Source of the DNA: a virus
Strand: one strand, 5' to 3'
Length of the DNA: 64,000 nt
Virus record (IMG/VR): IMGVR_UViG_3300032236_000971
Span: 1 to 64,000 of that record
Shown here: one piece after another, positions 4,331-14,087 of the stretch
Position numbering within the stretch: the first letter of the stretch is position 1
Layout of the letters: each line of letters opens with the position of its first letter
The notes under the pieces: generated by a model
Databases searched by the model: none
The model's input: the letters and a program-made list of their open reading frames with translations, nothing else
Told to the model about the DNA's origin: nothing
Program-made: the position numbers and the translations under genes

Positions 4331-4648
4331 AGGTTGTTTCTTCACGGATATACAGAGCGACGCAAGATACCTTAGTGGTTGTCGGCATAACATGCGGTCT
4401 TGGTAGTGTTATGTACTGTAGGCATACAGGCTGTATATCTTTGAAGAAACAACTTATTAGGTGTGGTGTTATGGAAAATTGCAGTGTTCCTGCACAGCGC
4501 ACAGTCAATGGGTCCTCTGTCCTGCAGGCACGGCCAATACTGAGTTGTAATCGAAATAGGAGTCATGACCTGAAATAAGATTACAGAGTAAAGCGAACGG
4601 TATGGCGGTCTATCCATATCCATAACATGACATCACTCCTAATAAGTT
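4331..4648 (+). ncRNA. Two adjacent unidentified structured RNA domains leading the tRNA operon
   Basis: GGTTGTTTCTTCA/TGAAGAAACAACT and GATATACAG/CTGTATATC stems; AACTTATTAGG/CCTAATAAGTT and GTTATGGA/TCCATAAC stems. Confidence 0.55.
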
Positions 4649-4649
4649 T

Positions 4650-4726
4650 GGACCCTTAGCTCAGTTGGTTAGAGCATCGGACTTTTAATCCGCGTGTCCT
4701 GGGTTCGAGTCCCAGAGGGTTCACCA
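4650..4726 (+). tRNA. tRNA-Lys(TTT)
   Basis: Cloverleaf, loop CT-TTT-AA, CCA. Confidence 0.95.
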
Positions 4727-4809
4727 AATTGCTTGTAGGGAGAGCCGAGTCGCTCCCGTATGTATTGGAGAGGCGTAAGCCTGGCGGTATACAACAAGCA
4801 AACTAATTT

Positions 4810-4884
4810 TGGCGTATAGCTCAGTGGTAGAGCACTGTCCTGATAAGACAGGGGTCGATGGATCGTAACCATCTATGCCAACCA
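4810..4884 (+). tRNA. tRNA-Ile(GAT)
   Basis: Cloverleaf, CT-GAT-AA, atypical T-loop ATCGTAA, CCA. Confidence 0.92.
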
Positions 4885-4888
4885 ATAA

Positions 4889-4965
<77 letters not shown>

Positions 4966-4971
4966 AATAAC

Positions 4972-5064
4972 GGAAGAATGGCAGAGTCTGGCTTATTGCA
5001 CTTGTCTTGAAAACAAGCGTACGTTTGTAGCGTACCGTGGGTTCAAATCCTACTTCTTCCGCCA
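4972..5064 (+). tRNA. tRNA-Ser(TGA)
   Basis: Long variable arm, CT-TGA-AA, G73-CCA. Confidence 0.95.
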
Positions 5065-5193
5065 CTACAGGCTCGTTCTCGTGGTTCTCGAGATAAACGA
5101 AACGAGGATTGTCATCGGTGCATTTAGCCGTGTGTTAGCCGATGTAAAAGAAGCCGGTTGGCGAGTCAGGAGCCAGTTAACGGTGAGAAATTT

Positions 5194-5271
5194 CCTCTGT
5201 TGGTGTAGCGGTCAAACATACCCGCCTTTCAAGCGCGGAGATCATCGGTTCAAATCCGATACAGAGGACCA
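5194..5271 (+). tRNA. tRNA-Glu(TTC)
   Basis: CT-TTC-AA, imperfect anticodon stem, CCA. Confidence 0.85.
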
Positions 5272-5276
5272 AATAC

Positions 5277-5352
5277 GGACCATTAGCTCAGCTGGTAGAG
5301 CAGGAGACTCTTAATCTCTTTGTCGAAAGTTCGAATCTTTCATGGTTCACCA
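5277..5352 (+). tRNA. tRNA-Lys(CTT)
   Basis: Cloverleaf, CT-CTT-AA, CCA. Confidence 0.95.
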
Positions 5353-5413
5353 ATAAAGTGCTTGACTTCAGGTGCTAAATAAAGTATGATATAATCTAAG
5401 TTGGAGATTCGTT

Positions 5414-5701
5414 ATGCATAAGCTTTTGATCGTTGCGGTTAGTGCAGCTGCATTAGCTGGTTGTACAGCTAGAGAACAGCAGGTGTTGACGGCTGGAGCT
5501 GTTGGTGCAGTTGCTGGTGCTGTGATTGTTAATGAAATGAATCAGCCTCGTTCTGTTTATGTTGAGCAGCGTTATGATCGTCCTCATCCTAGATACGAAC
5601 ATCATTACGTACCTGTTCCTCCTCGTCGCCCTCGTTGTTTTACAACTTGGGAAAATACACATCGTGGTATGATCGAACGTAGAGTTTGTGATCGTTACTA
5701 A
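5414..5701 (+). CDS. Small lipoprotein, glycine-zipper-like
   Basis: Lipobox LAGC, GAVGAVAGA helix; own promoter TTGACT-17-TATGAT at 5362-5390. Confidence 0.75.
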   Translation: MHKLLIVAVSAAALAGCTAREQQVLTAGAVGAVAGAVIVNEMNQPRSVYVEQRYDRPHPRYEHHYVPVPPRRPRCFTTWENTHRGMIERRVCDRY

Positions 5702-5708
5702 AGTTTAT

Positions 5709-5784
5709 TCCTCTGTAGCTCAGTTGGTAGAGCATGGTGCTGTTAACACCAGGGTCGTTCGTTCGAGCCGAACCGGAGGAGCCA
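5709..5784 (+). tRNA. tRNA-Asn(GTT)
   Basis: Cloverleaf, CT-GTT-AA, CCA. Confidence 0.95.
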
Positions 5785-5789
5785 AATAT

Positions 5790-5865
5790 GCCCGATTAGC
5801 TCAGCGGTAGTAGCGCCTCCTTTACACGGAGATTGTCGGCGGTTCAATCCCGTCATCGGGTACCA
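5790..5865 (+). tRNA. tRNA-Val(TAC)
   Basis: TT-TAC-AC, CCA. Confidence 0.93.
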
Positions 5866-5870
5866 TTATT

Positions 5871-5946
5871 GGGGGATTAGCTCAGTTGGGAGAGCGACTG
5901 CTTTGCACGCAGTAGGTCATCGGTTCGATCCCGGTATCCTCCACCA
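5871..5946 (+). tRNA. tRNA-Ala(TGC)
   Basis: G3:U70, TT-TGC-AC, CCA. Confidence 0.95.
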
Positions 5947-6147
5947 AGTTCAGAACTAACAGAGGAAGTGAATGGTTACCCTCTGTGAATGACAACAAGA
6001 TGCTGGGAAACCCGATAAATCTAACCATAGAGTGCATCTAGTCAAGATTCTGAAAAGTGTGTTTGTGGGTGACGAGCTAGTGAAACCCTCAACGGTTGGT
6101 CGCGTAATAGACTCGCGGGATACCATGGTCAGTATCCCACCAGTTTC

Positions 6148-6223
6148 GCCCGTATAGCTCATCAGGTAGAGCAGTTGATTTGTAATCATCAGGCGGTGGG
6201 TTCGAGTCCTGCTGCGGGCACCA
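6148..6223 (+). tRNA. tRNA-Thr(TGT)
   Basis: TT-TGT-AA, CCA. Confidence 0.93.
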
Positions 6224-6229
6224 GTTTAT

Positions 6230-6304
6230 AGCAGAGTGGAGCAGTAGTAGCTCGTTTGGCTCATACCCAAAAGGACGATGGTGCAATTCCATCCTCTGCA
6301 ACCA
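6230..6304 (+). tRNA. tRNA-Met(CAT), initiator-like
   Basis: A1:A72 mismatch, GAGC/GCTC D-stem as in fMet, CT-CAT-AC, atypical T-loop TGCAATT. Confidence 0.8.
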
Positions 6305-6307
6305 TTT

Positions 6308-6378
6308 GCTCACATCTACTAAGCGTAAGTAATCCCGTTTGAGGGAGGATGTAGGTTCAAGCCCTACTGTGAGCTCCT
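6308..6378 (+). pseudogene. Degenerate tRNA-like element
   Basis: Acceptor GCTCACA/TGTGAGC and T-arm GTAGG-TTCAAGC-CCTAC intact; no canonical 7-nt anticodon loop; ends TCCT not CCA. Confidence 0.6.
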
Positions 6379-6379
6379 A

Positions 6380-6597
6380 AATTAATATTACGCCAGCATA
6401 GTTGCTAACGATATGGCGTAATTAACCAGAAGCGTAAGAAGCAGTTGGTATACCCCAATCTGAATACGGGTTCGAATCCTGTAGTCTCTAACGAGTAGCC
6501 GAAGGGTGGATGTTAGAGGTGTAAAATGGTCGAAGGTGCGGGCATGTTGGGTTCGTTTCCCATGGCATTCTGTAGCTATGCTGGCGTAATATTAATT
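6380..6597 (+). ncRNA. Unidentified structured RNA closed by a 22-bp perfect stem, with internal T-arm
   Basis: AATTAATATTACGCCAGCATAG / CTATGCTGGCGTAATATTAATT; internal TACGGG-TTCGAAT-CCTGTA. Confidence 0.7.
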
Positions 6598-6672
6598 GAT
6601 CCTGTACGCATCTGGTGAGGCGACCCCTCTGTCTAAGGGGCGAGGAGGGTTCGATTCCCTTCAGGATCGCCA
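6598..6672 (+). tRNA. tRNA-Asp(GTC)
   Basis: CT-GTC-TA loop (T37), G73-CCA. Confidence 0.9.
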
Positions 6673-6680
6673 CTAAATAT

Positions 6681-6756
6681 TGGGGATTAGTTCAGTTGGT
6701 AGAACGCAGGATTCTGAATCCTGATGTCCGAGGTTCGAGTCCTTGATCCCCAGCCA
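6681..6756 (+). tRNA. tRNA-Gln(CTG)
   Basis: TT-CTG-AA, U1:A72, CCA. Confidence 0.95.
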
Positions 6757-6898
6757 ATACGTGGTAAGGAAAGCCTAGAGCGTCGCAGCTGCAGCAAGCG
6801 ACAAAGTAGGATCGGTTCGATCGACCGATAAGAGGAGCATGGGCAAGTCAGAGGGAGCTAAACCGATGACTGGATACCGCACCTGCCACATTTAATTT

Positions 6899-6973
6899 GG
6901 TGCCTGAGGTAGATGGTAAATCGCGGGACTGCAAATCCTTGAGAACCCAGTTCGATTCTGGGAGGCACCTCCA
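6899..6973 (+). tRNA. tRNA-Cys(GCA)
   Basis: CT-GCA-AA, U73-CCA. Confidence 0.9.
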
Positions 6974-7081
6974 CCTAGTAGCTGGAATATTCGAGACAAT
7001 GGGGATGACCCAAGGATTAACAAGCGGAGTAGCTACCGCCTCTGATAGTAACCTAGACGATATTTTGGCGGATCCAATAAT

Positions 7082-7158
7082 GGTTGAATAGCTCAACTGG
7101 ATAGAGCATCGGTCTACGAAACCGAAGGTTGAAGGTTCGAATCCTTCTTCGACCACCA
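7082..7158 (+). tRNA. tRNA-Arg(ACG)
   Basis: CT-ACG-AA, CCA. Confidence 0.95.
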
Positions 7159-7163
7159 TTAAT

Positions 7164-7294
7164 GGGCTGACAAAGCTCTTTATTTTCTACCTAGAAACAA
7201 TAGATGAATTTATAAATTCTATTGGGTTCCTCTAGATGCGGTAAAGAGACGGTGCATACTAGTTAGATGGGTTCGAATCCCATTCAGTCCACCA
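7164..7294 (+). ncRNA. tRNA-like RNA with Ala acceptor (G3:U70, A73, CCA), T-arm, no D-stem and a long irregular helix; resembles the tmRNA tRNA-like domain
   Basis: GGGCTGA/TCAGTCC-ACCA; ATGGG-TTCGAAT-CCCAT; CTCTTTA/TAAAGAG, CTAGA/TCTAG, AATAGA/TCTATT helices. Confidence 0.7.
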
Positions 7295-7301
7295 TTATAA
7301 T

Positions 7302-7376
7302 GCGGTCATAGCTCAGGGGTAGAGCACTTCGTTGCCAACGAAGATGTCGTCGGTTCGATCCCGACTGGCCGCTCCA
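7302..7376 (+). tRNA. tRNA-Gly(GCC)
   Basis: TT-GCC-AA, U73-CCA. Confidence 0.95.
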
Positions 7377-7393
7377 TTACTATATAATATCAT

Positions 7394-7467
7394 GCGGGGT
7401 TGGTATATAGATTGTGCCCTAGCCTTCCAAGCTAGTGAAACGGGTTTGAGTCCCGTACCCCGCTCCA
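7394..7467 (+). tRNA. tRNA-Gly(TCC)
   Basis: CT-TCC-AA, U73-CCA, T-loop TTTGAGT. Confidence 0.88.
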
Positions 7468-7472
7468 TTAAT

Positions 7473-7549
7473 GCCCGAGTAGTCCAATTGGCAGAGGCGT
7501 CCGCCTTAGAAGCGGAATGTTGGGGGTTCAAATCCCTCCTCGGGCACCA
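7473..7549 (+). tRNA. tRNA-Leu(TAG), short variable loop
   Basis: CT-TAG-AA, 5-nt variable loop, A73-CCA. Confidence 0.9.
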
Positions 7550-7556
7550 AAATAAT

Positions 7557-7632
7557 GCTGCTTTAGCTCAGTTGGTAGAGCACCTGATTAGTAATCAGGT
7601 TGTCGGGAGTTCGACCCTCTCAAGCAGCACCA
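7557..7632 (+). tRNA. tRNA-Thr(AGT) with A34
   Basis: CCTGA-TT-AGT-AA-TCAGG, G1-C2 acceptor, CCA. Confidence 0.92.
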
Positions 7633-7709
7633 GCCCATATGGTCCAATTGGAAGAGGCGTCGGCTTCAAACTCCGAATGTTGTAGGTTCGAGTCCTACTA
7701 TGGGCACCA
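7633..7709 (+). tRNA. tRNA-Leu(CAA), short variable loop
   Basis: TT-CAA-AC, 5-nt variable loop, CCA. Confidence 0.88.
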
Positions 7710-7711
7710 AT

Positions 7712-7785
7712 GCTACCTTAGTGTAATGGGAGCACAAGAGTTTGTGGCACTCTTAGCACTGGATCGTAACCAGTAGGTAGTACCA
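7712..7785 (+). tRNA. tRNA-His(GTG), alphaproteobacterial type
   Basis: TT-GTG-GC; no G-1, G1:U72, A73; T-loop ATCGTAA. Confidence 0.88.
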
Positions 7786-7798
7786 ATAAATAAAGTTT

Positions 7799-7889
7799 AG
7801 GTGGGCTGCAGAGACGGTGGTTCTGCGACGGACTGTAAATCCGTTCCTTAATGGTAACACTGGGGGTTCGAATCCCTCCCCACCTACCA
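7799..7889 (+). tRNA. tRNA-Tyr(GTA)
   Basis: CT-GTA-AA, long variable region, CCA. Confidence 0.9.
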
Positions 7890-7913
7890 TTTTCTTAACC
7901 TTGGAGATAAACA

Positions 7914-8075
7914 ATGAAGTTTGAATTTACTATTGAAGAAATTAATACTGTTATGGCGGCTCTTGGTCGCATGCCTTATGAGCAGGTATTTCAGCTTGTA
8001 GAAAAGATCCGTCAGCAAGCTGCTCCTCAGTTGCAGGAAGCTCAGGCAGCACAGGCGGCTGAACAGTCAGAATAA
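7914..8075 (+). CDS. Small hypothetical protein (53 aa, not in ORF track)
   Basis: GGAGA RBS; MKFEFTIEEINTVMAALGRMPYEQVFQLVEKIRQQA... Confidence 0.65.
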   Translation: MKFEFTIEEINTVMAALGRMPYEQVFQLVEKIRQQAAPQLQEAQAAQAAEQSE

Positions 8076-8077
8076 CT

Positions 8078-8152
8078 GCCGATGTAGCTCAGTGGTAGAG
8101 CATTCGCTTCATACGCGACTGGTCGCTGGTTCAAGTCCAGCTTTCGGCACCA
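8078..8152 (+). tRNA. tRNA-Met(CAT), elongator (or Ile2)
   Basis: TT-CAT-AC, CCA. Confidence 0.85.
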
Positions 8153-8206
8153 ATCCACGCCATCCCGATACGTCGGTTGGCACCTCCAGTTTCCGGACTG
8201 GAGACT

Positions 8207-8282
8207 GCTCCTCTGGTATAGCTGGTGCGTACGCCTGTCTGAAGAACAGGAAGATGCAGTTCGATTCTGTGGGGGAGCACCA
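8207..8282 (+). tRNA. tRNA-Phe(GAA)
   Basis: CT-GAA-GA (G37), CCA. Confidence 0.9.
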
Positions 8283-8419
8283 TTATATAAATACCTCAAA
8301 AAGAGGTAGATAATGTATAAAGCATACATACTAGCGATTGATAACATAAACAAATTAGTTTGGTTGGTACTGATGCTACATTGGTTAGCTGACGGTACGA
8401 AGATAGTTGATATCTTCAA

Positions 8420-9061
8420 ATGAAAACCATCGCTCTCTTCAACCATCATCCTGAATGTTCTGATCAGTGTTGTAAGGGTATGATGAGAGCATTAGAACCT
8501 CACTACAAAATAAAATGGTTTACTGTTCGTGATGATATCAAAGAGGTAGTTAAGAATGTTGATTGTATTGCTTTCCCTGGCGGGATTGGTGACTCTGATA
8601 GCTTTTTTGACTACTTTTCTCGCACACGTTCTAATGTTATTTCCTCGTTCATTGACGATGGGGGTAAATATCTTGGTATATGCATGGGGGCTTACTGGGC
8701 TGGGTCTCGTTACTTTGATATTCTTGACAACGTTAATTGCGTTCAATACATTAAGCGTCCTACCGCTGAGATAAGAAGAAGTTACGGAACAGTAGCTGAT
8801 ATTGAGTGGCTAGGTCAAAGAGAAAAGATGTTCTTTTATGACGGATGTACATTCGTTGGTTCCGGACGATATGATACAATTGCTAAGTACGCTAATGATG
8901 AGCCGATGGCAATAATTCAGGGTAATGTAGGTATCATAGGTTGTCATCCTGAAAGCGAAGAGTTTTGGTATGAAGAACCGTACAAATACCTCAGCGGTTA
9001 TTATCATGACGGTAGGCATCATAACCTACTACTTGAGTTTGTAGATAAATTATGGAAATAG
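8420..9061 (+). CDS. Class I glutamine amidotransferase-like protein (BPL_N type)
   Basis: FPGG, YLGICMGAY nucleophile elbow, HPE; TATAAATA at 8286-8293 upstream. Confidence 0.8.
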   Translation: MKTIALFNHHPECSDQCCKGMMRALEPHYKIKWFTVRDDIKEVVKNVDCIAFPGGIGDSDSFFDYFSRTRSNVISSFIDDGGKYLGICMGAYWAGSRYFDILDNVNCVQYIKRPTAEIRRSYGTVADIEWLGQREKMFFYDGCTFVGSGRYDTIAKYANDEPMAIIQGNVGIIGCHPESEEFWYEEPYKYLSGYYHDGRHHNLLLEFVDKLWK

Positions 9062-9642
9062 TTGAAAACTATATACACGTTGTTAAGCTAGGATTAGATA
9101 TTAAAGCTATTACTCATAGCTGTGATAGAATGTACGAATTTATTAAAACACAATTCAATGATAAACCAAAGTGGGCAGTAGCTGGTTCAACATATACAAC
9201 TAGCCTCTTTAACGAATATAATTTGTTTTTGTATCCGTTGCCTGAATTTCATAAATTATATAACGAGATAAAAACGTATTTTCATTCGGTGAAAGATAAT
9301 CCTAACGAGAAATATTATATTCAGTGTTGGTTAAATTATTATCAATTTGGCGAGTATATAGATTGGCATAATCATTGGCCTCCTGAAGTTAAATCATGGC
9401 ATGGATTTTATTGTGTATCTGGGGAAGGTTCTTATACTTCATATAAGCTCCCTCCTGATATGAAAGAAGTTGTTATACCAACGGTAACAGATCAACTTGT
9501 TTTAAGTAAAAGTGACGGGGATTTTCACCGCTCTTCTGAGTGGAATGGACAAACTCCGAGGGTAACGATAGCATTTGATATCGTGCCTCAAACTTTTTTC
9601 AATGCCCCTTTTGATATTATTAATCATTGGGTGCCTATTTAA
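9052..9642 (+). CDS. Putative 2OG-Fe(II) oxygenase-like protein
   Basis: WLNYY..G.YIDWHNH...HRS...RVTIAFD double-stranded beta-helix pattern. Confidence 0.65.
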   Translation: MEIVENYIHVVKLGLDIKAITHSCDRMYEFIKTQFNDKPKWAVAGSTYTTSLFNEYNLFLYPLPEFHKLYNEIKTYFHSVKDNPNEKYYIQCWLNYYQFGEYIDWHNHWPPEVKSWHGFYCVSGEGSYTSYKLPPDMKEVVIPTVTDQLVLSKSDGDFHRSSEWNGQTPRVTIAFDIVPQTFFNAPFDIINHWVPI

Positions 9643-9732
9643 GGAGGGTTGGCTGAGTGGTCTAAAGCACTCGTTTGCTAAATGAGCGAACCTTAATCGG
9701 TTCCGTGAGTTCGAATCTCACACTCTCCGCCA
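9643..9732 (+). tRNA. tRNA-Ser(GCT)
   Basis: TT-GCT-AA, long variable arm, G73-CCA. Confidence 0.95.
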
Positions 9733-9733
9733 T

Positions 9734-9807
9734 ATCGGTGTGATGTAATGGTAACATGACGGTCTCCAAAACCGTTCTTCCGGGTTCGAGTCCTGGCACC
9801 GGTGCCA
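9734..9807 (+). tRNA. tRNA-Trp(CCA)
   Basis: CT-CCA-AA, G73-CCA. Confidence 0.95.
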
Positions 9808-9811
9808 TTTT

Positions 9812-9928
9812 AGGTTGTGTTCAGCATACAATGGATGAACCAGTCGGTCGTGGGTTCAATCCCCACCAGGAGCTCTTTGCTTCTGTAGCTCAGTGGTAGA
9901 GCAACTGCCAAAAAGTACAACCTGTTGA
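9812..9928 (+). ncRNA. Array unit 1: YrlA-like Y RNA (circularly permuted tRNA mimic)
   Basis: Frame AGGTTGTG-TTCAGCA...TACAACCT-GTTGA; inside T-arm GTGGG-TTCAATC-CCCAC, closed acceptor CAGGAGC/GCTTCTG, D-arm GCTC-AGTGGTA-GAGC. Confidence 0.8.
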
Positions 9929-9937
9929 ATTTAGTGC

Positions 9938-9966
9938 TTGACTTATTCGTAGATAAAGCGTATTAT
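9938..9966 (+). promoter_or_regulatory. Sigma70-type promoter for array units 2-7 and the DUF2828 gene
   Basis: TTGACT-17-TATTAT. Confidence 0.75.
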
Positions 9967-9982
9967 ATGTTTATTGAGTTTG

Positions 9983-10107
9983 AGATTGACCGTTCAGCAA
10001 ACAACATTTAGCATCGCGCTAAGTATGACTGGCTTTATAACTGGTCCAGGTGGTTATTTCTTCGGGCTTCCACCGTAAAAAAATGAAAGAAGAAGTCAAT
10101 CTGTTGA
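9983..10107 (+). ncRNA. Array unit 2
   Basis: AGATTGAC-CG-TTCAGCA...GTCAATCT-GTTGA; three internal hairpins (TTAGC/GCTAA, GACTGG/CTGGTC, GGTGG/CCACC). Confidence 0.7.
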
Positions 10108-10112
10108 GTTTT

Positions 10113-10206
10113 AGGAAGCTTTCGGCAAACAATTATTGATTGGTTCAACTCCAATACCAGCCCCTGGGCTAGTACGCCTCGTGTGAGGCAAATTGCTTCC
10201 TGTCTA
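10113..10206 (+). ncRNA. Array unit 3: YrlA-like T-arm/acceptor-like/D-like order
   Basis: AGGAAGC-T-TTCGGCA...GCTTCCT-GTCTA; ATTGG-TTCAACT-CCAAT, AGCC/GGCT, GCCTC/GAGGC. Confidence 0.7.
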
Positions 10207-10211
10207 GTTTT

Positions 10212-10306
10212 AGGATACCTTCAGCAAACATAACTTGATATTGGTTATCAATCTGACTTTTAATCAGACTTAGCGGTTCGAATCCGCAGTTAGTGTATCC
10301 TGTTGA
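10212..10306 (+). ncRNA. Array unit 4: acceptor-less tRNA-Lys(UUU) body
   Basis: AGGATAC-C-TTCAGCA...GTATCCT-GTTGA; D-like TTGATA/TATCAA, TCTGA-CT-TTT-AA-TCAGA, GCGG-TTCGAAT-CCGC. Confidence 0.78.
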
Positions 10307-10317
10307 GTTAGAGTTCT

Positions 10318-10380
10318 AGGATTGTTACAGCATAAATGCACTTGATTTGTAATCAAACCCGCAAAGGGCAATCCTGTTGA
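10318..10380 (+). ncRNA. Array unit 5: carries Thr(UGU) anticodon stem-loop
   Basis: AGGATTG-T-TACAGCA...CAATCCT-GTTGA; TTGA-TT-TGT-AA-TCAA. Confidence 0.72.
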
Positions 10381-10391
10381 GTTAGAGTTTA

Positions 10392-10462
10392 AGGGTCAGT
10401 TCAGCAAACAAAACGACGCTAACATCGCATAAATGCCTAGCGGCACAAGTTGACCCTGTTGA
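10392..10462 (+). ncRNA. Array unit 6
   Basis: AGGGTCAG-TTCAGCA...TTGACCCT-GTTGA; small hairpins CGA/TCG, TGCC/GGCA. Confidence 0.7.
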
Positions 10463-10466
10463 GTTT

Positions 10467-10524
10467 AGATTCAGTTCCGCAACCAATCAAATCGACTTGA
10501 AATCGACCAAAGTGAATCTGTTGA
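10467..10524 (+). ncRNA. Array unit 7: carries Ser(UGA) anticodon stem-loop, abuts RBS
   Basis: AGATTCA-G-TTCCGCA...TGAATCT-GTTGA; TCGA-CT-TGA-AA-TCGA; followed by AAAGGAG and ATG 10539. Confidence 0.7.
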
Positions 10525-10538
10525 AAAGGAGAAGTGAA

Positions 10539-11972
10539 ATGAATACCTTTGTAAATGCCGTTGTTAATCAGTCTGCTCGTACCGAAAATGGTATGAAGGC
10601 TCGTCAGTCCACTGCTAATGCATTGACTGATCTGTTCTTCAAGATCGGTGCTATGCGTGGCCAGAATGTTATCCCTGCATGGACTGCTGCTTACGTTCAG
10701 GACGCTAAACTTGCTGCACGTATTGCTCTTTGGGCTCGCGATGTTCGTGGTGGTGCTGGTGAGCGTAAGATCTTCCGCGACATCCTTGTTGATCTTGCCA
10801 AGACCGATCCTTTTTATGGGGTAGGTCTTGCTCGTAAGATCCCTGAGTTGGGTCGTTGGGATGACTTCCTTGTTTTTGTTGGAACCCATCTTGAGGTTTA
10901 TGCTTTCGAAACTATTCGCGAAGCTCTTGAAGCTGGTGACGGTCTCTGCGCAAAGTGGATGCCTCGTCAGGGCGACGTAGCTGTAAAGCTCCGTAAGTAC
11001 CTTGGTTGGACTCCTAAGTTTTATCGCAAGCGTCTGGTTGAATTGACCAAGGTCGTTGAAACTCAGATGTGTGCTAACGACTGGGATAACATCAATTTTA
11101 ACCATGTTCCTTCTGTTGCTTCTGGTCGTTACAAGAAGGCGTTCTCTCGTCATACTGAAAAGTATAAGGAATGGACTGCTGCTCTTGTTTCTACTGATCC
11201 AAAGGTTAAGGAAACTGTGAAGGTTAACGCTGGTGCGGTCTATCCGTACGATGTGTTGAAGGGTGTAATCAACCACTATGGCCAGTACAACACCTCTAAC
11301 CTTCAGCATATTCAGGCTCAGTGGGATGCGCTTCCTAACTTCGTTGGTAATGCTAACATCCTTCCGCTTGTTGACGTTTCTGGTTCAATGACTTCGAAGG
11401 CTGGTGGTTATCAGTCAAAGTCAGAAGTAACCTGCCTTGATGTTGCTGTGTCTCTTGGTTTGTATCTCGCAGACAAGAACACTGGTAAGAAGTTCAAGAA
11501 TACGTTCTTGACTTTTTCTAGCAAGCCTTCGCTGCTTCATCTTCAGGGCAACATCCTTGATAAGGTAAAGCAGATGGTTACTTCAAAGTGGGAAATGTCA
11601 ACTAACTTGCACCTTGCTTTTGAAAAAATATTGTATGTTGCTCTTGAGTGGAAGGTTCCTCAGTCAGAAATGCCAGAAGTGTTGTTGATCCTTTCTGATA
11701 TGCAGTTTGATCAGTGCGCTCGTTACGACGACTCTGCTATGGAAATGATTAAGCGTAAGTATACTGAAGCAGGTTACGATGTACCTAACATTGTGTTCTG
11801 GAATCTCAATGCTCACGATAATGTTCCTGTCAAGTATGACACTCGTGGTGCTGCTCTTGTTTCTGGTTTCTCTCCTTCCATTGTTAAGGCTGTTTTACAG
11901 GCTGAAATGGGTAACTTTACGCCAGAGGCTATCATGATGCAGACTATCATGAACCCACGTTACGATTACTAA
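10539..11972 (+). CDS. DUF2828-family protein with C-terminal vWA domain (Ro60/TROVE-like RNA-binding protein)
   Basis: TENG, RDVRGGAGER, GRWDD, AKWMPR, VPSVA motifs; MIDAS VDVSGSM, LILSDMQFD, IVFWNL; start ATG 10539 after AGGAG. Confidence 0.85.
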   Translation: MNTFVNAVVNQSARTENGMKARQSTANALTDLFFKIGAMRGQNVIPAWTAAYVQDAKLAARIALWARDVRGGAGERKIFRDILVDLAKTDPFYGVGLARKIPELGRWDDFLVFVGTHLEVYAFETIREALEAGDGLCAKWMPRQGDVAVKLRKYLGWTPKFYRKRLVELTKVVETQMCANDWDNINFNHVPSVASGRYKKAFSRHTEKYKEWTAALVSTDPKVKETVKVNAGAVYPYDVLKGVINHYGQYNTSNLQHIQAQWDALPNFVGNANILPLVDVSGSMTSKAGGYQSKSEVTCLDVAVSLGLYLADKNTGKKFKNTFLTFSSKPSLLHLQGNILDKVKQMVTSKWEMSTNLHLAFEKILYVALEWKVPQSEMPEVLLILSDMQFDQCARYDDSAMEMIKRKYTEAGYDVPNIVFWNLNAHDNVPVKYDTRGAALVSGFSPSIVKAVLQAEMGNFTPEAIMMQTIMNPRYDY

Positions 11973-11978
11973 ATAACA

Positions 11979-12010
11979 GTGGCGGGATTTTTGTCCCGCC
12001 ACTTCTTTGT
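11979..12010 (+). terminator. Rho-independent terminator
   Basis: GTGGCGGGA/TCCCGCCAC stem then TTCTTTGTT. Confidence 0.7.
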
Positions 12011-12056
12011 TATGCTTCTGATGACGATTTCATTAATCCATCAAAAGGAGTGTAAT

Positions 12057-14087
12057 ATGAAAAGAATTTTAACCGCAATAGCTATGCTATTTGCATTAGT
12101 TACAACTGCATACGCAGACAGCGTTCTTATTATCGACGCAGGTTACAGTAATGTTACAGCAAACGTAAAAGGTCGTATCGAGGCGGCTGGTCATACTGTT
12201 ACTGTTACAACCGACGTTTCCCTTATTCCAACTAATAAGAACACATATCAACAGGTATGGGACCTTAGATATAGTGCAGCTTTGACAGCTGGTGAACAAA
12301 CAAGTTATACATCATTCGTCACATCTGGTGGTTTCGCTTATTTTGTAACTGAAAATCCTGGCTGTTGTATGAACCGCAACAATTCAGTTGCTGCTTTGAT
12401 TACTTCACTTGGTGGTGGTGCAACTACGATTGGTGCAAATTATAATACTGCTGCTGACGTAGAAAGTAATGTCAATACGAAGTATATGACTTCCGGTATC
12501 ACCGTTAACTACGCTGCTGTTTCCACAATCATAAACAACCAAGGTATTCCACTTATCTCAGACTCCAATAATGAAGTTTCTGGTATGAGTTGGATTGGTC
12601 GTGCAGGTGCATTAGGTCAGGGTGTAACAGGAACTATCGTTACTGTTGCGGATACTAACTGGCTTGACAGCGTTCGTTTCAGTACAGCACAAAACGCAAC
12701 TGTTGCTCAACAACAAAACGTAACTGCTCTTGACGACATCATTCGTGGTATCGTTGCTGGTACTGTTTCTGGTACGATCAGCGCGAATGGTAATGGAAAC
12801 GGCGTCGGCGCTAATGCTCCGCCTCCACCTCCAACTATTGTATCAACTGTCCCAGGAACACCAAAAGTTACATCTAGTTCTGCTAATGGAACTGCTGTTG
12901 TTTCTTCTGCTTCTACAAGAGGTACAACTGTTACTGTTTCTAATGTAACAACTGCGCCAACTGTGTATGTTGCTAGTGCTAAAGATGCAGCTGTAAATAA
13001 TTCAAAAACAATTGAAGTGACAAGAACAACAACGGTTGTTGGTACTACACCAAGAACGACTGTTAACACAGCTACAACACCAGTTACTACGGTTACAACA
13101 ACTACAACTCCAAGAACAACTACAACTGTCACAACTCCTGTTACGGTTACAACTTATTCTGATGGCTCTACAACTTCAGCTGATGGTACGCCAGTAACAA
13201 CTACATCAACAACTAACACAAGCACTCAAACAACTTCAACAACAAATGAAGTCGTAACAACCACGATTAAAGATGCGATAGTTAAGTCAGCTTCTTCAGA
13301 TGAGAAAGCTTCTGTATCAGCAACTGGTTTAAAAGATGCTCTTGCTGTTCGCAGATTTAATCCATTCATAGTAGACGCATTGTCAACTAAGGATGGTGCT
13401 TGGGCAACTCCAATGATGGGTTATGCAAAAACAGGAGACGGTTCATTTAGAACTAGTGCTCTTGGATTTGGTGCTCAATCAACTGTTGATGAAAATACTT
13501 TTGGTATTGCTGGTACATTTAGTAAACAAAACAGCCACGGTTATTTAAATTCATCTTCTGGTGCTGATTCATATGGAGCTACTGCTTATGTTCTATCAAA
13601 GCAAAGCGACGTTTGGGTGAAGGGGTCTGTTGGTTTTGATGTTTCTGAATATAACACAACCACTTCACTTCCAATTTTCGCCCTTGCTAATCAGAGCAAA
13701 GTGAAAGCTAAAAACTACTATGCTGATGTAACTTTCTATACAGCGCAGGAATTTTATGGCTTTAGACCATTAGCTGGCGTTGTTGTTACAAATTCAACCA
13801 TTGATTCTAAAGTTGAATCTGGTTCGCCTCTGCTTTCAACATTACCTCAGGATGATAGAGTTATTCAGGCTCGTCCATACGCTGGTGTAAGATATGACTT
13901 CAATGATAACATTGGCCTTGAAACAAGAATAACACAATCAAAAGATTTCAAAACAGTTGGACAGGCTCGTTTGACTGCTAACCAAGAAATGTTTAAAGAC
14001 GTGTTTTTCAACATTCAAGCTGGATTTGATAGAGGTTCAAATTACACTGCAGCTGTTGGAATGATTGGGTTGAAGATCAACTTTTAA
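12057..14087 (+). CDS. Autotransporter-like outer-membrane protein with Thr-rich stalk
   Basis: Signal peptide ending AYA (start 12057, AGGAG), passenger domain, Pro/Thr-rich linker, C-terminal beta-strand domain ending IGLKINF. Confidence 0.7.
   Translation: MKRILTAIAMLFALVTTAYADSVLIIDAGYSNVTANVKGRIEAAGHTVTVTTDVSLIPTNKNTYQQVWDLRYSAALTAGEQTSYTSFVTSGGFAYFVTENPGCCMNRNNSVAALITSLGGGATTIGANYNTAADVESNVNTKYMTSGITVNYAAVSTIINNQGIPLISDSNNEVSGMSWIGRAGALGQGVTGTIVTVADTNWLDSVRFSTAQNATVAQQQNVTALDDIIRGIVAGTVSGTISANGNGNGVGANAPPPPPTIVSTVPGTPKVTSSSANGTAVVSSASTRGTTVTVSNVTTAPTVYVASAKDAAVNNSKTIEVTRTTTVVGTTPRTTVNTATTPVTTVTTTTTPRTTTTVTTPVTVTTYSDGSTTSADGTPVTTTSTTNTSTQTTSTTNEVVTTTIKDAIVKSASSDEKASVSATGLKDALAVRRFNPFIVDALSTKDGAWATPMMGYAKTGDGSFRTSALGFGAQSTVDENTFGIAGTFSKQNSHGYLNSSSGADSYGATAYVLSKQSDVWVKGSVGFDVSEYNTTTSLPIFALANQSKVKAKNYYADVTFYTAQEFYGFRPLAGVVVTNSTIDSKVESGSPLLSTLPQDDRVIQARPYAGVRYDFNDNIGLETRITQSKDFKTVGQARLTANQEMFKDVFFNIQAGFDRGSNYTAAVGMIGLKINF

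What the first reader, a model, noticed from the sequence alone, without database searches (positions are those of the whole stretch)
10212..10524. Array payloads include acceptor-less anticodon arms for Lys(UUU), Thr(UGU) and Ser(UGA): possible anticodon-nuclease decoys
Seen: unit 4 holds a D-like arm, TCTGA-CT-TTT-AA-TCAGA and a T-arm but no acceptor or CCA. Unit 5 holds TTGA-TT-TGT-AA-TCAA, whose 14 nt TTGATTTGTAATCA are identical to the anticodon arm of the phage's own tRNA-Thr at 6148. Unit 7 holds TCGA-CT-TGA-AA-TCGA. All three are canonical 7-nt loops with U33, U34 and A37-A38, and none can be aminoacylated. Established: host defence anticodon nucleases such as PrrC and PARIS AriB cleave tRNA-Lys(UUU). 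Inference: these could be protein-stabilised decoy substrates or inhibitors for tRNA-cleaving defences, or sinks for U34-modification enzymes.
Basis: partly seen in the sequence, partly recalled or inferred. Interest (0 to 1): 0.85.

Follow-up and report, generated by a model that had tools for sequence, protein, structure and literature searches.

The report
Anticodon-arm baits on phage Ro60-partner RNAs
Three small RNA units in front of a phage gene for a Ro60-like RNA-binding protein each display a faithful copy of a tRNA anticodon hairpin (lysine, threonine, serine) on a shared "handle"; related phages keep the hairpin shape but swap the anticodon, which fits a bait for proteins that read or cut tRNA anticodons, a use that is still untested.

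Summary
Units 4, 5 and 7 of a seven-unit array (9812-10524, + strand) hold hairpins with 7-nt loops. [quoted passage not shown] None of 5000 shuffles of the region gives three such hairpins.

Unit 4 is a near-complete tRNA body without a free acceptor end. Its 17-nt arm is identical to the arm of real bacterial tRNA-Lys(UUU) genes. Every unit sits on a covarying stem plus a conserved CAGCAA-type motif, the "handle".

The downstream gene (10539-11972) folds like Ro60. In 78 related phage loci, 184 of 187 handle units lie upstream of that gene.

- About half of the small units keep a 4-5-bp stem and a C/U-U-NNN-A-A loop (18 of 38, against 0.85 expected).
- At least 13 different anticodons occur.
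- Stems covary, and single-letter anticodon swaps occur on one scaffold.

U34 is not conserved, so a U34-enzyme sink is unlikely. A decoy for anticodon nucleases is plausible: PARIS AriB cuts Lys-UUU, Thr-UGU and Asn-GUU at UAAUC|A, a context that units 4 and 5 keep. This is unproven.

This scan has noted the same design in other phage genomes. I found no publication describing it.

The parts
10212..10306 (+). Unit 4. Handle (AGGATAC ... GTATCCT + GTTGA) carrying a tRNA-Lys(UUU)-like body: D arm, anticodon arm at 10252-10268, T arm GCGG-TTCGAAT-CCGC, and a 4-bp acceptor-like helix that continues into the handle.
   Evidence: (Rfam tRNA 29.4 bits). The L004 orthologue has compensatory changes in the T stem and the acceptor-like stem. 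The 17-nt arm is identical to real bacterial tRNA-Lys(UUU) arms.
10318..10380 (+). Unit 5. Handle carrying a Thr(UGU) anticodon arm (10342-10356) between two small hairpins.
   Evidence: It is conserved in L001-L003. L010 has a compensatory stem change (TTGA/TCAA to TTGT/ACAA) with the loop kept.
10467..10524 (+). Unit 7 (last unit). Handle carrying a Ser(UGA) anticodon arm (10492-10506). Its 3' tail abuts the ribosome-binding site AAGGAG of the Ro60-like gene.
   Evidence: The loop CTTGAAA is kept on the different stems TTTGT/ACAAA (L004), TCTTA/TAAGA (L006) and CTTTT/AAAAG (L042).
9812..9928 (+). Unit 1. Handle carrying a YrlA-like permuted tRNA body (T arm, closed acceptor, D arm).
   Evidence: Rfam YrlA 36.9 bits, E 3.5e-6, below the gathering score of 69.
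9983..10206 (+). Units 2 and 3. Handles with other cargo (unit 3: a T-arm-like hairpin plus two hairpins).
10392..10462 (+). Unit 6. Handle with cargo that is not anticodon-like.
9938..9966 (+). Promoter-like site TTGACT-17-TATTAT between units 1 and 2. A similar site sits at the same place in L001, L003, L005, L006 and L010.
10539..11972 (+). Gene for a Ro60-like protein (477 aa; Pfam DUF2828 + DUF7788; PHROG 850 'RNA-binding protein').
   Evidence: The AlphaFold model has pLDDT 93.6. Foldseek top hits are Ro60 2i91/1yvr/1yvp (E 1e-9, TM about 0.6), phage phiLo Ro60 9kop/9l5y and Rsr 2nvo.
11978..12003 (+). Terminator-like hairpin plus T run that closes the operon.
4650..4726 (+). The phage's own chargeable tRNA-Lys(UUU). 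Its arm TCGGA-CTTTTAA-TCCGC has the same loop as unit 4 but a different stem.
4972..5064 (+). The phage's own tRNA-Ser(UGA), arm CTTGT-CTTGAAA-ACAAG.
6148..6223 (+). The phage's own tRNA-Thr(UGU), arm GTTGA-TTTGTAA-TCATC. It shares 14 nt with unit 5.

Best explanation
The three hairpins are selected mimics of tRNA anticodon stem-loops. They are carried as interchangeable cargo on 'handle' RNAs: a terminal stem, a CAGCAA-type motif and a 3' CUGUUGA tail.

The units are transcribed with the downstream Ro60-like gene from one promoter. They most likely bind that protein through the handle, as Y RNAs bind Ro60.

The particle then presents the anticodon arm as a non-chargeable bait to proteins that recognise tRNA anticodon loops. 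The leading candidates are host tRNA-cleaving defence nucleases of the PARIS-AriB, PrrC or Cas13 kind. The bait would titrate or hold them, perhaps with the protein's vWA/MIDAS face gripping the enzyme.

Shown: the mimicry, the handle, the linkage to the Ro60-fold gene, the conservation of loop geometry and the variation of the anticodon.

Inferred: binding to the protein, processing of the array, and the target.

My odds: mimicry under selection 0.9; partner RNAs of the Ro60-like protein 0.75; bait for anticodon nucleases specifically 0.35-0.4.
For: The mimicry is beyond chance.
- Loops are identical to the phage's own tRNA loops, and no shuffle of 5000 gives three such hairpins.
- Unit 4 scores as a tRNA. 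Its 17-nt arm equals genuine bacterial tRNA-Lys(UUU) arms in 62 of the first 80 loci returned, including Caulobacterales, Brevundimonas and Hyphomicrobiales.

The design is conserved.
- 18 of 38 non-redundant small units hold a hairpin with a 7-nt Y-U-NNN-R-N loop (0.85 expected). 14 hold the strict C-U-NNN-A-A form (0.18 expected).
- On 22 such units, both the handle stem and the arm stem covary: 94% of cells are paired against 32-44% when the partner is slid, and 81 cells change on both sides against 27 in shuffles.
- At least 13 anticodons occur in the first 80 loci and 20 types in the wider set.
- Swaps occur on one scaffold, for example TTTCA-CTGTAAA-TGAAA against TTTCA-CTGTTAA-TGAAA.

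The units are linked to the protein.
- 184 units lie upstream of the gene, 2 inside it and 1 downstream, in 78 loci.
- The handle also sits next to the homologous gene in Felix-O1-type, Listeria P100 and Aeromonas LAh_9 phages.
- The protein has a Ro60 fold.
- A promoter and a terminator bracket units 2-7 and the gene.

There is a link to defence.
[quoted passage not shown] Units 4 and 5 read UAAUCA, while the phage's own tRNA-Lys reads UAAUCC.
- Thr-UGU, Lys-UUU and Asn-GUU are among the commonest cargo anticodons.
- Isolated anticodon stem-loops are cut by an activated Cas13 (PMC13692257).
- The Ro60-like gp130 of the Felixounavirus Bas63 counters the Ppl defence (PMC11482910).
- Related phages' real tRNA-Lys(UUU) genes mostly have G31-C39 (24 of 36). 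All 16 handle-borne Lys loops sampled without regard to stem keep A31-U39.
Against: - There is no expression, binding or cleavage data for this phage, and the host is unknown.
- AriB also needs D-loop contacts (U16), and a hybrid tRNA with the right cleavage site was not cut. A bare arm (units 5 and 7) may therefore not be recognised by that enzyme.
- Ser(UGA), a common cargo, is not a published anticodon-nuclease target that I could find.
- About half of the small units carry loops that are not anticodon-like, for example 8-9-nt loops with GCAUAU. Felix-O1-type handles carry no anticodon arms. The handle-protein pair therefore has a broader job.
- Cargo stems are A/U-rich, so A31-U39 could partly reflect composition.
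- The phage's own tRNA-Thr(UGU) also keeps UAAUCA, so 'resistant tRNA plus sensitive decoy' is not a general pattern.
- Ppl, the one defence known to be countered by a homologue, is not known to act on tRNA.
Confidence: 0.4

Rival explanations
1. The arms act as a tether or sink for housekeeping proteins that read the anticodon loop. These include tRNA-modifying enzymes (for example those for A37 in loops ending U/A-A-A, or for G34/U34) and aminoacyl-tRNA synthetase anticodon-binding domains. The arms would bring such proteins to the Ro60-like particle or withdraw them from the host.
For: YrlA, the closest known RNA, is a substrate of tRNA-modifying enzymes (PMC4201824). Cargo loops almost always keep A37 (41 of 44 arms) and A38 (35 of 44), and position 36 is U or A in 39 of 44. 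That is the signature of tRNAs modified at A37 (established knowledge).
Against: Position 34 varies (U, G, C), so no single position-34 enzyme fits. The benefit to the phage of a sink is unclear. The wide, fast-changing choice of anticodons between close relatives looks more like an arms race than a housekeeping interaction.
Confidence: 0.17
2. These are ordinary Y-RNA-type RNAs. They gate the Ro60-like ring or recruit an exoribonuclease such as PNPase to remodel host RNA. The cargo is mainly a structural filler inherited from tRNA genes, without its own trans-acting target.
For: Ro60 fold. Phage phiLo Ro60 with two Yrl RNAs binds host PNPase (PMC12135203). Many units carry cargo that is not anticodon-like. 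Arrays lie inside tRNA gene clusters, which supply raw material.
Against: The loop sequence is held constant while stems change by compensatory substitutions, and the enrichment over shuffles is about 20-fold (loose form) to 80-fold (strict form). A filler would not keep exact anticodon loops with U33 and A37-A38.
Confidence: 0.2
3. This is mainly cis-regulation. The units, above all unit 7 next to the ribosome-binding site, are operator sites through which the protein controls its own translation. The hairpins only stabilise the leader.
For: The last unit ends 19-24 nt before the ATG in many loci, and its tail abuts AAGGAG in the window. Phage phiM7 has an empty handle at that place.
Against: This does not explain six further units, units placed among tRNA genes far from the gene (L081), or the exact anticodon loops. 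It can coexist with the main explanation.
Confidence: 0.1
4. The hairpins are decaying fragments of duplicated tRNA genes with no function.
For: They lie next to a 26-tRNA cluster, and the Thr arm shares 14 nt with the phage's own tRNA-Thr.
Against: Covariation, conserved handles, conserved position and strand upstream of one gene family in 71 of 78 loci, and recurrence in unrelated phages.
Confidence: 0.03

Closest known systems
Ro60 (Rsr) with Y RNAs, especially YrlA of Salmonella, Mycobacterium and mycobacteriophages (Rfam RF02553; Chen et al. 2014, PMC4201824)
   Same: A Ro60-fold protein gene with small RNA genes beside it. The RNA ends pair into a stem with a conserved element. At least one RNA per locus mimics tRNA: unit 1 aligns to YrlA over its full length.
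   Different: The protein is Pfam DUF2828/DUF7788, not TROVE, by sequence. The handle sequence differs from the Ro-binding helix, and no unit reaches the YrlA gathering score. There are arrays of up to seven units. The cargo includes bare anticodon arms and a body with an anticodon arm, whereas YrlA as described mimics the T arm, D arm and acceptor. Chen et al. discuss an anticodon-like arm only for D. radiodurans Yrn1, and that arm has a 6-nt loop.
Thermus phage phiLo Ro60 with Yrl1/Yrl2 (PMC12135203; PDB 9KOP, 9L5Y)
   Same: A phage-encoded Ro60-fold protein with upstream partner RNAs. The structures are among the best fold matches.
   Different: The phiLo RNAs were defined by a CGAA bulge and have no reported tRNA or anticodon mimicry. 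The proposed role there is PNPase hijacking.
Bas63 (Felixounavirus) gp130, a Ro60-like anti-Ppl factor (PhageMaP preprint, PMC11482910)
   Same: The same protein family by inference. All 251 Felixounavirus-type records hold the gene, and the Felixounavirus copies listed are 37-38% identical to the window protein. It is the only member with a measured anti-defence phenotype.
   Different: Its partner RNAs were only guessed at in the paper. The Felix-O1-type handles I read carry no anticodon arms. Ppl is not known to target tRNA.
Phage T5 tRNA-Lys/Thr/Asn variants that neutralise PARIS (PMC12409363)
   Same: Both are phage RNA answers to anticodon-region nucleases, and the same anticodons (UUU, UGU, GUU) are prominent.
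   Different: The T5 molecules are functional, cleavage-resistant replacement tRNAs. The units here cannot be charged and keep the sensitive-type context UAAUCA, so they would act as baits, not replacements.
Dictyostelium Class I RNAs (Rfam RF01414)
   Same: A short terminal stem followed by CCUUACAGCAA. Unit 4 reads GGAUACCUU-CAGCAAAC ... GUAUCCUG and gives a weak match (24.2 bits, E 0.079).
   Different: The match is below the gathering score (41.5), the organisms are unrelated, and no anticodon cargo is known there.

Membership tests
Ro60 / Y RNA ribonucleoprotein | Neighbouring protein with the Ro60 architecture (HEAT-repeat ring plus vWA/MIDAS domain) | tested here: met
   The AlphaFold model has pLDDT 93.6 and pTM 0.92. 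Foldseek top 12 hits are all Ro60/Rsr/phage Ro60, with E 1e-9 to 1e-5 and TM 0.46-0.64. By sequence there is only a marginal profile match to Ro60 (E 0.15), and Pfam names DUF2828/DUF7788.
Ro60 / Y RNA ribonucleoprotein | RNA whose 5' and 3' ends form a stem carrying the conserved Ro-binding element | tested here: inconclusive
   A terminal stem with covariation and a conserved motif is present. The motif (UUCAGCAAAC / CUGUUGA) is not the Y RNA or YrlA element.
Ro60 / Y RNA ribonucleoprotein | Physical binding of the RNA to the protein | not testable with these tools
   Only genomic linkage is available: 184 of 187 units lie upstream of the gene on the same strand.
YrlA (Rfam RF02553) | Score at or above the family's gathering threshold (69 bits) | tested here: not met
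   Unit 1 scores 36.9 bits. Units 4, 5 and 7 give no match even at E up to 10. No YrlA hit at gathering score in 20 related loci.
tRNA (Rfam RF00005) | Cloverleaf with a 7-bp acceptor stem and a free 3' end for charging | tested here: not met
   Unit 4 reaches 29.4 bits (gathering score 29) through its D, anticodon and T arms. Its acceptor is 4 bp and is continuous with the handle. ARAGORN calls nothing there. Units 5 and 7 hold the anticodon arm only.
tRNA anticodon stem-loop (as a structural mimic) | 4-5-bp stem, 7-nt loop, U33, purine 37, and a loop identical to a real tRNA's | tested here: met
   for the window. for homologues. Unit 4's arm is 17/17 identical to bacterial tRNA-Lys(UUU) arms. 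The Lys arm of L016 and LAh_9 matches 15 of 17 nt of E. coli lysT.
Decoy or inhibitor of anticodon nucleases (functional class) | Is bound or cleaved by, and protects against, a tRNA-cleaving defence enzyme | not testable with these tools
   Only circumstantial. Units 4 and 5 keep the AriB cleavage context UAAUC|A, and the anticodon spectrum overlaps AriB targets.
Dictyostelium Class I RNA (Rfam RF01414) | Score at or above the gathering threshold (41.5 bits) | tested here: not met
   24.2 bits, E 0.079 for unit 4.

The most novel reading that the evidence does not exclude
Phages carry a cassette system of programmable RNA baits. A Ro60-like ring protein holds handle RNAs whose exchangeable cargo copies the anticodon arm of whichever host tRNAs the local defence nucleases attack. 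The particle captures or saturates those nucleases. Anticodon swaps between related phages would then record an arms race with tRNA-targeting immunity.
Probability: 0.3. Interest if true: 0.9.

Novelty: new variant of a known kind. Interest (0 to 1): 0.72.

Why it matters
tRNA cleavage is now recognised as a common bacterial anti-phage strategy. The known phage answers are replacement tRNAs and RNA repair. A non-chargeable anticodon-arm bait mounted on a Ro60-like particle would be a third kind of answer.

It would also give a concrete function to a protein family present in at least 711 cultured-phage records, including Felix O1, Listeria P100 and Staphylococcus and mycobacterial phages. It could explain why bacterial Y RNAs mimic tRNA at all.

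The design is modular: one handle carries many cargoes. It occurs in cultured phages (Aeromonas phage LAh_9, Synechococcus phage BUCT-ZZ01), so it can be tested directly.

Tried and rejected
- BLASTN of the array against cultured phages found only tRNA-like pieces of unit 1.
- Tandem Repeats Finder does not see the array, because the units differ too much.
- Sequence searches of the protein against PDB were marginal: nothing for the single sequence, and the profile gave Ro60 at E 0.15. The fold search was needed.
- RtcB, RNA ligase and CCA-adding enzyme families were not found in the 108-kb record, which is about 65% complete. An RNA-repair platform has no support here, but it is not excluded.
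- I tried to show that the phage's real tRNAs are 'escape' variants and the mimics 'sensitive' copies. This holds for Lys but not for Thr, whose real tRNA keeps the same context. I do not rely on it.
- The pseudoknot between UCAGCA and UGUUGA proposed in another note was looked at by eye. It has one compensatory pair in unit 3 but mismatches in the CCGCA-type last units, so I left it open.
- Two other loop-matching hairpins in the window (43784 +, 33147 -) lie in coding context without a handle and look like chance.
- I guessed an accession for Bas63 and got another phage. The orthology to gp130 therefore rests on family-wide conservation and on the paper's description.

Full report
WHAT IS THERE

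The window is part of a 108-kb uncultured phage record, about 65% complete, with 26 tRNA genes at 4650-9807.

Directly after tRNA-Trp lies an array of seven units (9812-10524, + strand). Each unit has:
- a terminal stem that starts AG and ends CT and differs in sequence between units;
- a conserved inner motif of the type TTCAGCAAAC;
- a variable cargo;
- a conserved 3' tail GTTGA(G)TTTAG.

In the whole 108-kb record these seven are the only units that form a cluster. The finder's five other hits are scattered and carry different motifs.

A promoter-like site (9938-9966) lies between units 1 and 2, and a terminator-like hairpin (11978-12003) follows the next gene. Units 2-7 and that gene therefore look like one operon.

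THE OBSERVATION

The three hairpins are exactly as described. [quoted passage not shown] The Thr hairpin shares 14 nt with the tRNA.

Outside tRNA genes, the + strand of the 64-kb window has six hairpins whose loop equals one of the 29 own anticodon loops. Three of them are in these 313 nt. None of 5000 shuffles of the region reaches three. The two others that I read (one on each strand) sit in coding sequence without a handle.

Unit 4 is almost a whole tRNA. Rfam's tRNA model aligns a D arm with GG, the anticodon arm, a 4-nt variable region and a canonical T arm, at 29.4 bits against a gathering score of 29. The acceptor is only 4 bp and runs on into the handle stem, so there is no end to charge. 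ARAGORN does not call it.

Its orthologue in L004 keeps the fold through compensatory changes: T stem GCGG/CCGC to GTGG/CCAC, and acceptor-like AACT/AGTT to TACT/AGTA.

THE PARTNER PROTEIN

The gene at 10539-11972 matches Pfam DUF2828 + DUF7788 and PHROG 850 'RNA-binding protein'. With an alignment of 77 representatives, AlphaFold gives pLDDT 93.6.

The best structural matches are all Ro60: Xenopus Ro (2i91, 1yvr, 1yvp; E about 1e-9, TM about 0.6), Thermus phage phiLo Ro60 (9kop, 9l5y), Deinococcus Rsr (2nvo) and human Ro60. Plain vWA domains follow far behind.

Homologues occur in 711 cultured-phage records, among them Felixounavirus, Listeria P100, Staphylococcus, Campylobacter and Vibrio phages, and mycobacteriophages, where they are annotated 'Ro-like RNA binding protein'.

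THE HANDLE GOES WITH THE PROTEIN

I fetched 80 of 383 IMG/VR relatives. A simple handle finder gave 191 units, 154 of them unique.
- Over 78 loci, 184 units lie upstream of the gene on its strand, 2 lie inside it and 1 downstream, in equal amounts of sequence.
- 71 of 78 loci have at least one upstream unit.

The same handle stands next to the homologous gene in very different phages:
- A Felix-O1-type Salmonella phage has stem GACCNNT / NNGGTC with TACAGCAA, among the tRNA genes.
- Listeria P100 has three units behind a promoter.
- Aeromonas phage LAh_9 has five units.
- Synechococcus phage BUCT-ZZ01 also carries handle units, and Sinorhizobium phage phiM7 has an empty handle at the ribosome-binding site.

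Rfam has no family for these RNAs. At gathering score only tRNAs appear in 20 related loci. In the window, unit 1 gives a sub-threshold YrlA match and unit 4 a weak Dictyostelium Class I match.

They do.

Enrichment:
- Of 38 non-redundant small units (under 70 nt), 18 hold a hairpin that is not a T loop, with a stem of 4 bp or more and a loop Y-U-NNN-R-N. Dinucleotide shuffles give 0.85 (maximum 4).
- The strict form C-U-NNN-A-A occurs in 14, against 0.18.
- Loop length 7 stands out among stems of 5 bp or more: 20 cases against 3.8 expected.

Anticodon variety. Distinct arms in the first 80 loci read Thr UGU (7), Ser UGA (5), Asn GUU (3), Lys UUU (2), Ile UAU/GAU, Ser GGA/CGA, Arg UCU, Gln UUG, Met CAU, Phe GAA, Tyr GUA and Leu UAA. 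A wider set gives 20 anticodon types in 44 distinct arms.

Covariation. On an alignment of 22 such units, both helices covary. 94% of cells are paired, against 32-44% when the partner is slid. 81 cells change on both sides, against 27 in shuffles (0 of 500 reach the observed value). These 22 units were chosen for having the hairpin, so the pairing percentage is partly by construction. The shuffle test is the unbiased one.

Examples:
- The loop CTTGAAA sits on the stems TCGA/TCGA, TTTGT/ACAAA, TCTTA/TAAGA and CTTTT/AAAAG.
- One stem TTTCA/TGAAA carries CTGTAAA (GUA) in L033 and CTGTTAA (GUU) in L077.
- L023 and L033 share the handle AGGTTCAG/TTGAACCT but carry different arms.
- The same arm also moves between contexts: TTTGT-CTTGAAA-ACAAA is bare in L004 and sits inside a D/anticodon/T body in L012.

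A scan of IMG/VR for a handle-framed TTGACTTTTAATCAA found 48 places, 43 of them with a closing handle stem of many different sequences.

WHAT IS NOT GENERAL

- About half of the small units carry other loops, notably 8-9-nt loops with GCAUAU. There are also T-arm cargoes, YrlA-like bodies and a 215-285-nt class.
- The Felix-O1-type units I read have no anticodon arms.
In 44 distinct arms position 34 is U in 26, G in 15 and C in 2, whereas A37 (41 of 44) and A38 (35 of 44) are kept.

The handle-protein pair therefore has a wider role, and anticodon arms are one class of cargo.

HOW IT MOST LIKELY WORKS

By analogy with Ro60 and Y RNAs (established: the Y RNA stem binds Ro60 and the rest of the RNA tethers other proteins; PMC4201824, PMC12135203), the handle is the probable binding site of the Ro60-like protein, and the cargo is what the particle shows to others.

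An exact, non-chargeable anticodon arm is a bait for proteins that read that arm. Several facts point to tRNA-cutting defence enzymes.

(i) Target overlap. [quoted passage not shown] Units 4 and 5 read UAAUCA, while the phage's own tRNA-Lys reads UAAUCC. UGU, UUU and GUU are among the commonest cargoes.

(ii) Identity to host-type arms.
- Unit 4's 17-nt arm is identical to real bacterial tRNA-Lys(UUU) arms, including those of Caulobacterales, Brevundimonas and Hyphomicrobiales. The phage's real tRNA-Lys arm is of another natural type.
- An alphaproteobacterial host is an inference.

(iii) Real against mimic Lys arms. In the related phages, 24 of 36 real tRNA-Lys(UUU) genes have G31-C39 next to the loop. 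All 16 handle-borne Lys loops sampled without regard to stem have A31-U39. A/U-rich cargo composition may contribute to this.

(iv) Bare arms can be substrates. An activated Cas13 cuts isolated anticodon stem-loops (PMC13692257).

(v) A homologue has an anti-defence phenotype. The Ro60-like gp130 of the Felixounavirus Bas63 is needed against the Ppl defence (PMC11482910). The gene is present in all 251 Felixounavirus-type records.

(vi) Expression in a relative. In a P100-like Listeria phage, three very abundant RNAs were seen within 2 kb upstream of the Ro-like gene (PMC12282133). P100 has three handle units there. I did not check that the positions coincide.

Against the decoy reading:
- AriB also needs D-loop contacts, so bare arms may not serve for that enzyme. 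Unit 4 does have a D loop.
- Ser(UGA) is not a known target.
- The real tRNA-Thr keeps the same context as the mimic.
- Ppl is not known to touch tRNA.
- Nothing here has been measured.

I therefore put mimicry under selection at 0.9, partnership with the Ro60-like protein at 0.75, and the anticodon-nuclease bait at 0.35-0.4. The rivals are a tether or sink for housekeeping anticodon-loop enzymes, a generic Y-RNA role, and cis-regulation by the last unit. The last of these can coexist with the main explanation.

COMPARISON WITH WHAT IS KNOWN

The kind is known: Ro60 with Y RNAs that mimic tRNA, also in phages (Chen et al. 2014), and a phage Ro60 structure with two partner RNAs (2025).

New here, as far as my searches of papers and of Rfam go:
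- the distinct handle;
- the arrays;
- the cargo of bare anticodon arms with varying anticodons.

This scan has already noted the same design in other phage genomes. Those notes agree with what I found, but they are not independent evidence.

I file it as a new variant of a known kind. It is not a member of YrlA or of tRNA, because the defining thresholds and features are not met.

Noticed in passing
L083 (Synechococcus phage BUCT-ZZ01, ON615601.1) 4600-4850: Two tRNA-shaped genes have an acceptor stem and CCA, but the anticodon arm is replaced by a closed handle (stem' + CTGT, a short loop, stem + TTCTGCAAT). This is the handle topology permuted relative to the window's units.
   Followed up: no
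L021, L027, L040, L051-L061, L064, L071-L074 (units of 215-285 nt just upstream of the Ro60-like gene): A large, conserved handle-unit class with GGGGATGGGG ... CAGAAAATAAA. No Rfam family matches it at gathering score.
   Followed up: partly
L001 2866-2917, L009 2795-2846, L051 1397-1450, L074 2931-2985, L086 2552-2605: A second class of small handle units whose single hairpin has an 8-9-nt loop containing GCAUAU-like letters. It is not anticodon-like.
   Followed up: no
L086 (Aeromonas phage LAh_9, MK838115.1) 2612-2700: A cultured phage carries a Lys(UUU) arm, TTTGA-CTTTTAA-TCAAA, on a 20-bp handle stem (fold z-score -9.4). The arm matches 15 of 17 nt of E. coli lysT. This makes it a tractable test system.
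   Followed up: partly
L082 (Sinorhizobium phage phiM7) 2935-2990: An 'empty' handle (stem AAAACGA/TCGTTTT around CAACAGCAAC) lies directly before the ribosome-binding site of the Ro60-like gene. This suggests autoregulation through the handle.
   Followed up: no
L084 (Listeria phage P100) 2660-2960: A promoter plus three handle units lie right upstream of gp165. A transcriptome paper on a P100-like phage reports three very abundant RNAs within 2 kb upstream of the Ro-like gene (PMC12282133).
   Followed up: partly
tRNA genes in L001-L134: Real phage tRNA-Lys(UUU) genes mostly have G31-C39 beside the loop (24 of 36). Many real tRNA-Thr(UGU) genes have U31.U39 or the loop TTTGTAG. These are possibly escape variants.
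   Followed up: partly
own genome C1 73797-74140 (outside the window): ARAGORN calls a permuted (two-piece type) tmRNA with tag ANDNNASRLALAA, overlapping tRNA-Arg(UCU) at 74097-74173.
   Followed up: no
window 5194-5271 (also L001 25-102): A tRNA gene with anticodon UCA, called tRNA-SeC by ARAGORN, is conserved in a close relative. It may be an opal suppressor.
   Followed up: no
window 10212-10306: The handle of unit 4 (GGAUACCUU-CAGCAAAC ... GUAUCCUG) gives a weak match to Dictyostelium Class I RNA (RF01414; 24.2 bits, E 0.079).
   Followed up: no
window 11978-12003: The terminator-like hairpin after the Ro60-like gene overlaps the GTG start listed for the 702-aa ORF at 11979-14087, which has no Pfam or PHROG match. 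That start is probably wrong.
   Followed up: no
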